Positions 40,720 to 64,000 of a DNA stretch of 64,000 nt are shown here, piece by piece; position 1 is the stretch's first letter, and the number at the start of each line of letters is the position of its first letter. Source of the stretch: the human T2T-CHM13v2.0 reference genome, Homo sapiens; assembly GCF_009914755.1 (NCBI RefSeq), contig NC_060933.1. One strand, 5' to 3'. The translations under genes and the position numbers were made by a program. The notes below the pieces were generated by a model, which did no database searches, was not told the origin of the DNA, and was given only the letters and a program-made list of their open reading frames with translations.

Positions 40720-41186
<467 letters not shown>

Positions 41187-41195
41187 CTCTGTCAC

Positions 41196-41363
41196 TTTTT
41201 TTTTTTTTTCACTAAGTATAATGTCATTTATTTATCTTCGGTGGCTCTATAATGCCTTATACTTCAGCTATGAATTCAGGACCATGCACATCTTAAACCT
41301 ATCCCCCATCTGGCCTATGTCATTCCAACCTTATCTTTCACCAATCTCCTAGAAAAGCCTTTC
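41196..41363 (-). other. 3' transduction carried by L1-A (second poly(A) 41196-41209, AATAAA 41227-41232)
   Basis: Non-L1 sequence enclosed within the L1-A TSD and ending in a poly(A) 17 nt after an AATAAA on the minus strand. Confidence 0.8.
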
Positions 41364-41608
41364 TTTTTATTTATTTATTTATTTAGTTAGTTATTTTATT
41401 ATTATTATACTTTAAGTTTTAGGGTACATGTGCACATTGTGCAGGTTACTTACATACATATACATGTGCCATGCTGGTGTGCTGCACCCACTAACTCGTC
41501 ATCTAGCATTAGGTATATCTCCCACTGCTATCCCTCCCCCCTCCCCCCACCCCACAACAGTCCCCAGAGTGTGATGTTCCCCTTCCTGTGTCCATGTGAT
41601 CTCATTGT

Positions 41609-45449
<3,841 letters not shown>

Positions 45450-45497
45450 TTATTTTGCTCGTTACTTGATGCAGTTTCTTCCTAGTCTCGATGGTCT

Positions 45498-46511
45498 TTA
45501 CATTTTGGCATGATTTTGCAGCGGCTGGTACCGGTTGTTCCTTTCCATGTTTAGCACTTCCTTCAGGAGCTCTTTTAGGGCAGGCCTGGTGGTGACAAAA
45601 TCTCTCAGCATTTGCTTGTCTGTAAAGTATTTTATTTCTCCTTCACTTATGAAGCTTAGTTTGGCTGGATATGAAATTCTGTGTGGAAAATTCTTTCCTT
45701 TAAGAATGTTGAATATTGGCCCCCACTCTCTTCTGGCTTGTAGGGTTTCTGCCGAGAGATCCGCTGTTAGTCTGATGGGCTTCCCTTTGAGGGTAACTCG
45801 ACCTTTCTCTCTGGCTGCCCTTAACATTATTTCCTTCATTTCAACTTTGGTGAATCTGACAATTATGTGTCTTGGAGTTGCTCTTCTCAAGGAGTATCTT
45901 TGTGGCGTTCTCTGTATTTCCTGAATCTGAACATTGGCCTGCCTTGCTAGATTGGGGAAGTTCTCCTGGATAATATCCTTCAGAGTGTTTTCCAACTTGG
46001 TTCCATTCTCCCCATCACTTTCAGGTACACCAATCAGACGTAGATTTGGTCTTTTCACATAGTCCCATATTTCTTGGAGGCTTTGCTCGTTTCTTTTTAT
46101 TCTTTTTTCTCTATACTTTACTTCTCACTTCATTTCATTCATTTCATCTTCCATCGCTGATACCCTTTCTTCCAGTTGATCGCATCGGCTCCTGAGGCTT
46201 CTGCATTCTTCACATAGTTCTCAAGCCTTGGTTTTCAGCTCCATCAGCTCCTTTAAGCACTTCTCTGTATTGGTTATCCTAGTTATACATTCTTCTAAAT
46301 TTTTTTCAAAGTTTTCAACTTCTTTGCCTTTGGTTTGAATGTCCTCCCATAGCTCAGAGTAATTTGATTGTCTGAAGCCTTCTCTCAGCTCGTCAAAGTC
46401 ATTCTCCATCCAGCTTTGTTCCCTTGCTGGTGAGGAGCTGCGTTCCTTTGGAGGAGGAGAGGCGCTCTGATTTTTAGAGTTCCCAGTTTTTCTGTTCTGT
46501 TTTTTCCCCAT
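45498..46511 (-). pseudogene. L1-A ORF1, disrupted by a CpG-derived TGA after KTKA (46221)
   Basis: MGKKQNRKTGNS... to ...YQPLQNHAKM split across two ORFs. Confidence 0.96.
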
Positions 46512-47415
46512 CTTTGTGGTTTTATCTACTTTTGGTCTTTGATGATGGTGATGTACAGATGGGTTTTTGGTGTGGATGTCCTTTCTGTTTGTTAGTTTTC
46601 CTTCTAACAGACAGGACCCTCAGCTGCAGGTCTGTTGGAGTACCCTGCAGTGTGAGGTGTCAGTGTGCCCCTGCTGGAGGGTGCCTCCCAGTTAGGCTGC
46701 TTGGGGGTCAGGGGTCAGGGACCCACTTGAGGAGGCAGTCTGCCCCTTCTCAGATCTCCAGCTGCGTACTGGGAGAACCACTGCTCTCTTCAAAGCTGTC
46801 AGACAGGGACATTTAAGTCTGCAGAGGTTACTGCTGTCTTTTTGTTTGTCTGTGCCCTGCCCCCAGAGGTGGAGCCTACAGAGGCATGCAGGCCTCCTTG
46901 AGCTGTGGTGGGCTCCACCCAGTTCGAGCTTCCTGGCTGCTTTGTTTACCTAAGCAAGCCTAGGCAATGGTGGGCGCCCCTCCCCCAGCCTCGCTGCCGC
47001 CTTGCAGTTTGATCTCAGACTGCTGTGCTAGCAATCAGCAAGACTCCGTGGGGTAGGACCCTCCGAGCCAGGTGCGGGATATAATCTCGTGGTGTGCCGT
47101 TTTTTAAGCCCGTCGGAAAAGCGCAGTATTCGGGTGGGAGTGACCCGATTTTCCAGGTGCCATCCGTCACCCCTTTCTTTGATTAGGATAGAGAACTCCC
47201 TGACCCCTTGCGCTTCCTGAGTGAGGCATTGCCTCACCTTGCTTTGGCTCGCACACGGTGCGCGCACCCACTGACCTGCGTCCACTGGCTGGCACTCCCT
47301 AGTGAGATGAACCGGGTACCTCAGATTGAAATGCAGAAATCACCCGTCTTCTGCGTCGCTCAGGCTGGGAGCTGTAGACGGGAGCTGTTCCTATTCGGCC
47401 ATCTTGGCTCCTCCC
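46512..47415. promoter_or_regulatory. L1 5'UTR bidirectional promoter (sense toward minus, antisense toward plus) with intact YY1 site
   Basis: CpG-rich complete 5'UTR. The YY1 motif AAGATGGCC reads on the minus strand at 47397-47405. Confidence 0.75.
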
Positions 47416-47589
47416 TCCTCTGTTGCTTTCTTAAAGGCAACCACTATGCAGACTCATGTAAGCAGATATTAGTTTTTCCCTGTTAAAAATTGGCATTTGT
47501 TTTGTTTCTGGTTTCCTTTATTGTTATGTTTTCTGATATTGAACTACATTATTGTGGGTACCAGTCACTTGTTTTTTACTCCTCCATAG

Positions 47590-58897: not shown

Positions 58898-59126
58898 ATT
58901 TTTCTTTTTCTTTTTTTTTTTATTATACTTTAAGTTTTAGGGTAAATGTGCACATTGTGCAGGTTAGTTACATATGTATACATGTGACAAGCTGGTGCGC
59001 TGCACCCACTAACTCGTCATCTAGCATTAGGCATATCTCCCGATGCTATCCCTCCCCCCTCCCCCCACCCCACAACAGTCCCCAGATTGTGATATTCCCC
59101 TTCCTGTGTCCATGTGATCTCATTGT

Positions 59127-62957
<3,831 letters not shown>

Positions 62958-62993
62958 TTAGTTGATACAGTTTCTTCCTAGTCTTGATGGTCT

Positions 62994-64000
62994 TTACATT
63001 TTGGCATGATTTTGCAGTGGCTGGTACTGGTTGTTCCTTTCCATGTTTAGTGCTTCCTTCAGGAGCTCTTGTAAGGCAGGCCTGGTGGTGACAAAAATCT
63101 CTCAGCATTTGCTTGTCTGTATTTTATTTCTCCTTCACTTATGAAGCTTAGTTTGGCTGGATATGAAATTCTGGGTTGAAAATTCTTGTCTTTAAGAATG
63201 TTGAATATTGGCCCCCACTCTCTTCTGGCTTGTAGGGTTTCTGCCGAGAGATCCGCTGTTAGTCTGATGGGCTTCCCTTTGAGGGTAACCCGACCTTTCT
63301 CTCTGGCTGCCGTTAACATTTTTTCCTTCATTTCAACTTTGGTGAATCTGACAATTATGTGTCTTGGAGTTGCTCTTCTCGAGGAGTATCTTTGTGGCGT
63401 TCTCTGTATTTCCTGAATCTGAACATTGGCCTGCCTTGCTAGATTGGGGAAGTTCTCCTGGATAATATCCTTCAGAGTGTTTTCCAACTTGGTTCCATTC
63501 TCCCCATCACTTTCAGGTACACCAATCAGATGTAGATTTGGTCTTTTCACATAGTCCCATATTTCTTGGAGGCTTTGCTCATTTCTTTTTATTCTTTTTT
63601 CTCTAAACTTCCCTTCTCGCTTCATTTCATTCATTTCATCTTCCATTGCTGATACCCTTTCTTCCAGTTGATCGCATCAGCTCCTGAGGCTTCTGCATTC
63701 TTCACATAGTTCTCCAGCCTTGGTTTTCAGCTCCATCAGCTCCTTTAAGCACTTCTCTGTATTGGTTATCCTAGTTATACATTCTTCTAAATTTTTTTCA
63801 AAGTTTTCAACTTCTTTGCCTTTGGTTTGAATGTCCTCCCGTAGCTCAGAGTAATTTGATCGTCTGAAGCCTTCTTCTCTCAGCTTGTCAAAGTCATTCT
63901 CCATCCAGCTTTGTTCCGTTGCTGGTGAGGAACTGTGTTCCTCTGGAGGAGGAGAGGTGCTCTGCTTTTTAGAGTTTCCAGTTTTTCTGTTCTGTTTTTT
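62994..64000 (-). pseudogene. L1-B ORF1, disrupted (TGA at 63677, frameshift at ~63120)
   Basis: ORFs 63677-63904 and 63059-63646 are ORF1p peptides. Confidence 0.95.

What the first reader, a model, noticed from the sequence alone, without database searches (positions are those of the whole stretch)
41186..41405. L1-A carries a ~150-bp 3' transduction that tags its source locus
Seen on the minus strand, in order: L1 3'UTR, (TAAA)n tail (41364-41403), ~150 bp of non-L1 sequence (41210-41363), AATAAA (41227-41232), 17 nt, A14 (41196-41209), then the TSD cctctgtcacttt. That TSD matches cctctgttgcttt next to the L1 5' end (47417-47429), differing only by opposite decay of one CpG. This is the established structure of L1 read-through 3' transduction. 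The transduced piece starts AAAGAAAGGCTTTTCTAGG, which looks like the source element's own TSD. It does not match L1-B's flank, so L1-B is not the parent.
Basis: partly seen in the sequence, partly recalled or inferred. Interest (0 to 1): 0.75.

Follow-up and report, generated by a model that had tools for sequence, protein, structure and literature searches.

The report
L1 transduction whose parent has vanished
An old, broken jumping-gene copy (L1) on chromosome 9 carries a 156-base piece of a METTL8 intron from chromosome 2 where no L1 sits today, so it likely records a parent L1 that has since been lost; this is an ordinary, known process.

Summary
The structure is real. On the minus strand a full-length, ORF-disrupted L1 is followed by its tail, 156 bp of non-L1 DNA, AATAAA, 17 nt and a non-templated A14. 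The 156 bp have one other match in this genome: C2 (chr2):171,865,453-608, 3 differences, sense strand of a 31-kb METTL8 intron. It is the empty site: no L1, no tail, no scar, and the match starts at an endonuclease-type TT|AAGAAA junction. This is a 'parentless' 3' transduction, a described class; the parent most likely never fixed in the lineage (about 0.8). The main rivals (about 0.15 together) use intronically polyadenylated METTL8 RNA and need no L1 at chr2. The 3' 'TSD' is also the 5' TSD of an adjacent, probably older AluY, with a third copy at 40880-40893. The L1 likely reused the Alu's nick. 'Opposite decay of one CpG' is not shown. Ape orthologues could not be tested. Ordinary; interest low.

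The parts
47417..47432 (-). 5' copy of the target-site duplication (14 nt certain, 16 nt if the last two G's are counted), preceded by TTT: an endonuclease-type TT|AAGAAA site
41404..47416 (-). L1-A body: full-length L1, 96-97% identical to other full-length copies, both ORFs broken, non-Ta/non-pre-Ta (L1PA2-type label is recalled)
41366..41403 (-). internal A-rich tail of the L1 (inferred: the parent's genomic tail)
41210..41365 (-). 156-bp piece copied from C2:171,865,453-171,865,608 (minus), sense strand of a METTL8 intron; differences at window 41302, 41240, 41216
41227..41232 (-). AATAAA polyadenylation signal, present at the donor too; the donor has T/GT-rich sequence just past the cleavage point
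41196..41209 (-). A14, not templated at the donor; its last six A's overlap the 3' TSD copy
41186..41201 (-). middle copy of the duplication: 3' TSD of the L1 insert and 5' TSD of the Alu
40894..41186 (-). full-length Alu with tail (AluY-type, label recalled); 7 of 197 non-CpG and 15 of 46 CpG positions differ from the majority of 30 related copies
40880..40893 (-). third copy of the duplication: the Alu's 3' TSD
47435..47564 (-). upstream half of an ancient repeat (old L1 3' end, name recalled) that was split by the insertions; weak match, E 0.078
40723..40871 (-). downstream half of the same ancient repeat, E 6e-16, collinear with the upstream half

Best explanation
L1-A carries 156 bp of a METTL8 intron behind its tail, likely because a full-length parent L1 once sat in that intron, was read through to the next AATAAA and was later lost from the lineage. 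Shown: the piece, its single donor, the donor's poly(A) signal, the non-templated A14, one duplication enclosing L1 plus piece, and an empty donor site. Inferred: (1) a parent L1 inserted in sense at C2:171,865,608/609; (2) its transcript bypassed the weak L1 signal and was polyadenylated 17 nt past the intronic AATAAA; (3) target-primed reverse transcription put the whole RNA into the chr9 nick already used by an older AluY, duplicating 14-16 nt; (4) the daughter persisted and decayed while the parent allele never fixed on the line to this genome (drift, lineage sorting, or selection against a sense L1 in an intron). L1-A's divergence (1.0% private non-CpG) suggests insertion around or before the human-chimpanzee split (calibration recalled).
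For: One other match only. The match begins exactly at TT|AAGAAA at the donor and ends 17 nt after AATAAA; the donor continues without A's. 13 of 16 positions match between the L1's 5' flank and the sequence after A14, against 7 at the tail junction. The flanks are collinear halves of one old repeat with no room for the 156 bp (profile positions 74-221 and 234-395). No young L1 lies in 20 kb around the donor, only an 81-87% copy starting over 5 kb downstream and short fragments of 69-81%. The donor lies between METTL8 exons at 171,869,192 and 171,837,657, same strand. 3' transduction is common (466 of 5,311 polymorphic L1s carry a 5' or 3' transduction, most of them 3'; PMC12350158, passages), and donors without an L1 are described: 17 of 18 in PMC7980453; only 3 of 27 next to an L1 in PMC13141329, both in dogs.
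Against: The parent was not seen; no ape or other human genome could be searched. The 7 nt after the nick are the same at target and donor (6 of 552 TT|AA[AG]A sites in hand have them), and the upstream flanks also resemble each other (4 of 498 sites score as high; post hoc). This model treats both as coincidence. The duplication has three mismatches, including a TG/CA flip that is rare (7 of 7073). The donor is inside a gene whose RNA has been retrocopied (C12:15.13 Mb, 88%), so an L1-free RNA source exists. The published parentless cases read here are recent dog insertions, not old fixed human ones. The upstream-flank match is weak (E 0.078; significant in 2 of 3 relatives in an anchored test; not significant unanchored).
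Confidence: 0.8

Rival explanations
1. Template switch in one event: ORF2p began on a METTL8 pre-mRNA polyadenylated at the intronic AATAAA, copied 156 nt to the edge of an A-rich run and jumped to the poly(A) of an unrelated L1 RNA. No L1 was ever at chr2.
For: The donor is sense-strand METTL8 intron with a plausible poly(A) site. A T-rich cDNA end at this junction could pair with poly(A) (inference). The donor is empty and unscarred. It also gives one enclosing TSD.
Against: The gene-RNA/L1 chimeras seen in the passages of 10.1101/2025.02.02.635956 put the RNA at the 5' end; none of this polarity was seen there. Read-through is far more frequent. No sibling or parent elsewhere shares a cluster of three L1-A variants (1 match, itself), though these may postdate insertion.
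Confidence: 0.07
2. Two events: L1-A inserted plainly; later a short retrocopy of intronically polyadenylated METTL8 RNA (class 1 templated insertion, or an orphan transduction) landed at its tail/TSD junction, its 5' end joined through the shared 7 nt.
For: It explains why the first 7 nt of the piece equal the first 7 nt of the target duplication. Class 1 templated insertions have poly(A) signal, A tail and intronic donors (PMC5110952, passages). This site has been hit at least twice already.
Against: It needs a third insertion at the same nick. Its own 3' TSD copy should repeat the shared 7 nt, but the middle copy has A in place of the G. The piece's divergence (3 of 156; 95% interval 0.4-5.5%) fits the L1's age but cannot separate the events.
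Confidence: 0.07
3. The parent L1 was fixed at chr2 and later removed precisely by recombination between its two TSD copies.
For: This would leave the same clean empty site.
Against: Precise removal of a 6-kb element is rare compared with loss of an unfixed allele (general knowledge, recalled).
Confidence: 0.04
4. The 156 bp are native to chr9, or arrived by DNA-level duplication or conversion.
For: Target and donor sites resemble each other over about 22 nt.
Against: Homology stops sharply at both ends, the A14 is non-templated and correctly spaced from AATAAA, and the chr9 flanks join without the piece.
Confidence: 0.02

Closest known systems
Partnered L1 3' transduction (definition and counts in PMC12350158, passages; T2T catalogue in 10.1101/2021.07.12.451456, passages)
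   Same: L1, internal tail, unique DNA that maps elsewhere, downstream poly(A) signal, second tail, one TSD around all.
   Different: No L1 upstream of the donor in this genome; the element is old and ORF-disrupted rather than a young polymorphic L1.
'Parentless' 3' transductions (PMC7980453 and PMC13141329, passages; dogs)
   Same: The transduced DNA maps to a site with no adjacent L1.
   Different: There the parents are taken to be still segregating; here the daughter has about 1% private divergence, so the parent is more likely extinct in humans (inferred).
Class 1 templated sequence insertions (PMC5110952, passages)
   Same: Intronic donor without L1, cryptic AATAAA 10-30 nt before a non-templated A tail, endonuclease-type site.
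   Different: Here the piece is fused behind a full-length L1 inside the L1's own duplication and has no clear TSD of its own.
Nested Alu/L1 insertions at a reused endonuclease site (general knowledge, recalled)
   Same: Three copies of one target sequence around two adjacent elements.
   Different: Nothing essential.

Membership tests
L1 3' transduction (parentless) | L1 3' end with its own tail directly before non-L1 DNA | tested here: met
L1 3' transduction (parentless) | The non-L1 DNA maps to another genomic locus | tested here: met
   C2:171,865,453-608, 151 of 154 identical, only other match
L1 3' transduction (parentless) | Poly(A) signal in the piece and a second, non-templated tail | tested here: met
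   AATAAA 17 nt before A14; donor lacks the A's
L1 3' transduction (parentless) | One TSD encloses L1 and piece, at an endonuclease-type site | tested here: met
   13 of 16 identical, preceded by TTT; three mismatches, and shared with the Alu
L1 3' transduction (parentless) | Donor not adjacent to an L1 in the genome searched | tested here: met
L1 3' transduction (parentless) | Piece absent from the pre-insertion target site | tested here: inconclusive
   No outgroup available; flanks are collinear halves of one old repeat without room for it, upstream half weak
Source-verified 3' transduction | Full-length L1 of the same subfamily directly upstream of the donor | tested here: not met
   Empty site in this genome; not filed as source-verified
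Source-verified 3' transduction | Filled donor allele in another human or ape genome | not testable with these tools
   The genome has no relatives here (header); a cut supplement gave no hit
Class 1 templated sequence insertion | Cryptic poly(A) signal, non-templated tail, donor without L1 | tested here: met
Class 1 templated sequence insertion | Own TSD of at least 5 bp on both sides of the piece | tested here: inconclusive
   7 nt at the 5' junction match the target, but the 3' copy differs at one of them and merges with the A tail
L1PA2 subfamily | Not Ta or pre-Ta at the 3' diagnostic triplet | tested here: met
   L1-A reads GAG where L047 reads ACG; triplet rule from PMC12350158
L1PA2 subfamily | Best match to the L1PA2 rather than the L1PA3 consensus | not testable with these tools
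   No repeat library available; label recalled. L1-A groups with L1-B and L048, apart from five other copies
AluY | Best match to the AluY consensus | not testable with these tools
   Label recalled; a 39-nt stretch of it has 18,661 exact matches in the genome

The most novel reading that the evidence does not exclude
No L1 was ever at chr2. The insert is a 3' chimera in which ORF2p captured an intronically polyadenylated METTL8 pre-mRNA and joined it to a full-length L1, and the 22-nt likeness between target and donor sites guided the joining. Some old 'parentless' transductions would then be host-RNA captures rather than traces of lost source elements.
Probability: 0.1. Interest if true: 0.6.

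Novelty: new member of a known kind. Interest (0 to 1): 0.27.

Why it matters
As a mechanism it adds nothing new: one of many L1 3' transductions. Its modest value is as a record of an active full-length L1 that is no longer in this genome, with a base-exact prediction of where it sat (METTL8 intron, sense strand, C2:171,865,608/609). A filled allele in an ape would be a clean lineage-sorting marker. Counting such old parentless tags by gene context could measure how often sense intronic source L1s were purged. No function is indicated for the 156 bp.

Tried and rejected
L1-B as parent: different 3' flank. An L1 or scar at the donor: none; no direct repeat of 8 nt or more within 60 nt of the junction. 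Other offspring with the same or longer donor flank: none among the 40 of 481 candidates scored for a 1,061-bp query; the other 41 matches lie in downstream repeats. Siblings sharing three L1-A variants: only L1-A itself. The tail pattern as a lineage tag: 1,766 matches, useless. Showing that the donor piece is part of a continuous old repeat: no significant match in the loci held, inconclusive. Genome search with the upstream flank: self only. Naming the donor's gene by Pfam family or solved structures: no result; settled. L1-first, Alu-second order: not excluded but less likely; Alu 7 of 197 non-CpG differences vs L1-A 97 of 5,828 (p 0.053) or 60 of 5,833 private (p 0.006); the 30 comparison Alus all came from the start of C1 and were picked by an exact 39-mer. 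Print: no paper held METTL8 + LINE-1 + transduction; searches listed none on this locus. Szak 2003, Pickeral 2000 and Xing 2006 were not held and were not read. The T2T transduction table is in a closed bioRxiv supplement, and the source tables of PMC12350158 lie beyond the cut in its spreadsheet, so this event may already be catalogued.

Full report
Observation. On the minus strand the window reads: L1 3' end, an A-rich tail (41366-41403), non-L1 DNA (41210-41365), AATAAA at 41227-41232, 17 nt, A14 (41196-41209), then a sequence matching the L1's 5' flank. The tail is a mix of TAA, TAAC and TAAA units.

The donor. Searching the window's own genome with 41210-41363 gave two matches from two candidates: the window and C2:171,865,453-171,865,606, minus strand, E 8e-69. 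The copies differ at 3 of 154 positions without gaps; the match extends 2 A's into the tail and 0 bases at the other end. A 1,061-bp donor query scored 40 of 481 candidates; only the window matched over the piece, and the remaining matches were repeats more than 500 bp downstream. The donor continues with mixed T/GT-rich sequence where the window has A14, so the tail is non-templated. The direction is therefore chr2 to chr9 through a polyadenylated RNA (inference from these features).

The donor is empty. Upstream of the piece, chr2 has ordinary sequence ending in TT, giving an endonuclease-type TT|AAGAAA junction exactly where the match starts. There is no L1, no tail and no direct repeat of 8 nt or more within 60 nt. 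In 20 kb around it the only L1 matches are an 81-87% copy starting over 5 kb downstream and short old fragments. An exon 3.6 kb upstream is 100% identical to human METTL8; the next coding exon is at 171,837,657 and all are on the minus strand. The donor is thus in the sense strand of a 31-kb METTL8 intron.

The target site has three copies of one sequence. In register they are 47417-47432 (L1 5' side), 41186-41201 (after A14) and 40880-40893. The first two match at 13 of 16 positions; the first and third at 12 of 14. Between the second and third lies a full-length Alu (41186-40894). A profile built from three unrelated copies of an old repeat matches the downstream flank at profile positions 234-395 (E 6e-16) and the upstream flank at 74-221 (E 0.078), so the flanks are collinear and leave no room for 156 bp. 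The upstream match is weak: not significant in an unanchored test, and reached by 21, 0 and 799 of 1,000 shuffles against the three relatives when anchored.

Order and age. The Alu differs from the majority of 30 related copies at 7 of 197 non-CpG and 15 of 46 CpG positions (median of the 30: 3.6% and 23.9%). L1-A differs from the majority of 7 other copies at 97 of 5,828 non-CpG positions, 60 of 5,833 privately. The Alu is probably older (p 0.053 on all differences, 0.006 on private ones), and the L1's duplication runs two G's into the Alu's 5' junction, which fits Alu first but is weak because L1 5' ends are G-rich. Only 6 of the 29 L1 matches were fetched, plus L1-B. L1-A is full length, 96-97% identical to those copies, has both ORFs broken and lacks the Ta and pre-Ta triplets. 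The L1PA2 and AluY labels, and the reading that 1% private divergence places insertion around or before the human-chimpanzee split, are recalled knowledge, not call results.

The CpG claim. The Alu's two TSD copies read TG, one old-repeat relative aligns with TG here (L014), and only the L1's 5' copy reads CA. An ancestral CG is possible but not shown. Private TG/CA flips occur at 7 of 7,073 such dinucleotides across 8 L1 copies, 3 of them in L1-A, so a flip in one copy is rare but real.

Mechanism. The simplest account is read-through from a parent L1 that sat at the donor's TT|AAGAAA junction, polyadenylation at the intronic signal, and insertion of the whole RNA at the Alu's nick; the parent allele did not persist on the line to this genome (0.8). 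Transductions are common (466 of 5,311 polymorphic L1s, most 3'; PMC12350158, passages), and donors without an L1 are named 'parentless' in dog genomes (17 of 18, PMC7980453; 3 of 27 next to an L1, PMC13141329; passages only). PMC3088655 (passages) attributes the excess of antisense elements in genes to purifying selection, which offers a reason for loss; this step is inference.

Against it. The parent is unseen. The first 7 nt after the nick are the same at target and donor (6 of 552 comparable sites in the sequence held), and the upstream flanks align at 19 of 22 positions including those 7 (4 of 498 sites score as high upstream). The test was made after seeing the likeness, and real insertion sites are richer in such words than the control, but it remains unexplained. 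Because the donor is sense-strand intron of a gene that has been retrocopied (C12:15.13 Mb, 88%), two L1-free routes stay open: a template switch from METTL8 RNA to L1 RNA (0.07), or a separate class 1 templated insertion joined through the shared 7 nt (0.07; class described in PMC5110952, passages). Precise excision of a fixed parent (0.04) and DNA-level duplication (0.02) are less likely.

Print. No held paper combined METTL8, LINE-1 and transduction; listings showed none on this locus. The T2T repeat preprint reports 183 top-confidence L1 3' transductions (10.1101/2021.07.12.451456, passages), but its table is in a closed supplement. The spreadsheet of PMC12350158 is cut before its source tables and gave no hit for either locus, which is weak evidence. 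The event may already be catalogued.

Verdict. Real, well supported as a parentless L1 3' transduction, with a nested-Alu correction. New member of a known kind; interest 0.27.

Noticed in passing
window 47426-47447 vs C2:171,865,602-171,865,620 (L002 1650-1668): Target and donor sites align at 19 of 22 positions across the nick; unexplained, post hoc.
   Followed up: partly
window 58900-64000: L1-B, a second minus-strand L1 11.5 kb from L1-A, 96.9% identical over 5,117 bp; it groups with L1-A in a tree of 8 copies (support 96/96), which could reflect shared lineage or local conversion. Its 5' end is outside the window.
   Followed up: partly
window 47029-47528: The RefSeq enhancer in the supplied annotation covers L1-A's 5' end and its 5' TSD; L1-A lies in sense within predicted lncRNA LOC124902188.
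   Followed up: no
G000:C12:15,132,427-15,133,077: Intronless match to METTL8 residues 198-415 at 88% with one stop: a likely processed pseudogene.
   Followed up: no
L003 about 390-2530 (C2:171.866-171.868 Mb): Open frames upstream of the donor read like a decayed DNA-transposon (Tigger-type, recalled) interrupted by an Alu.
   Followed up: no
window 41457-41458 and two other places in L1-A: L1-A holds 3 of the 7 private TG/CA dinucleotide flips found in 8 L1 copies.
   Followed up: partly
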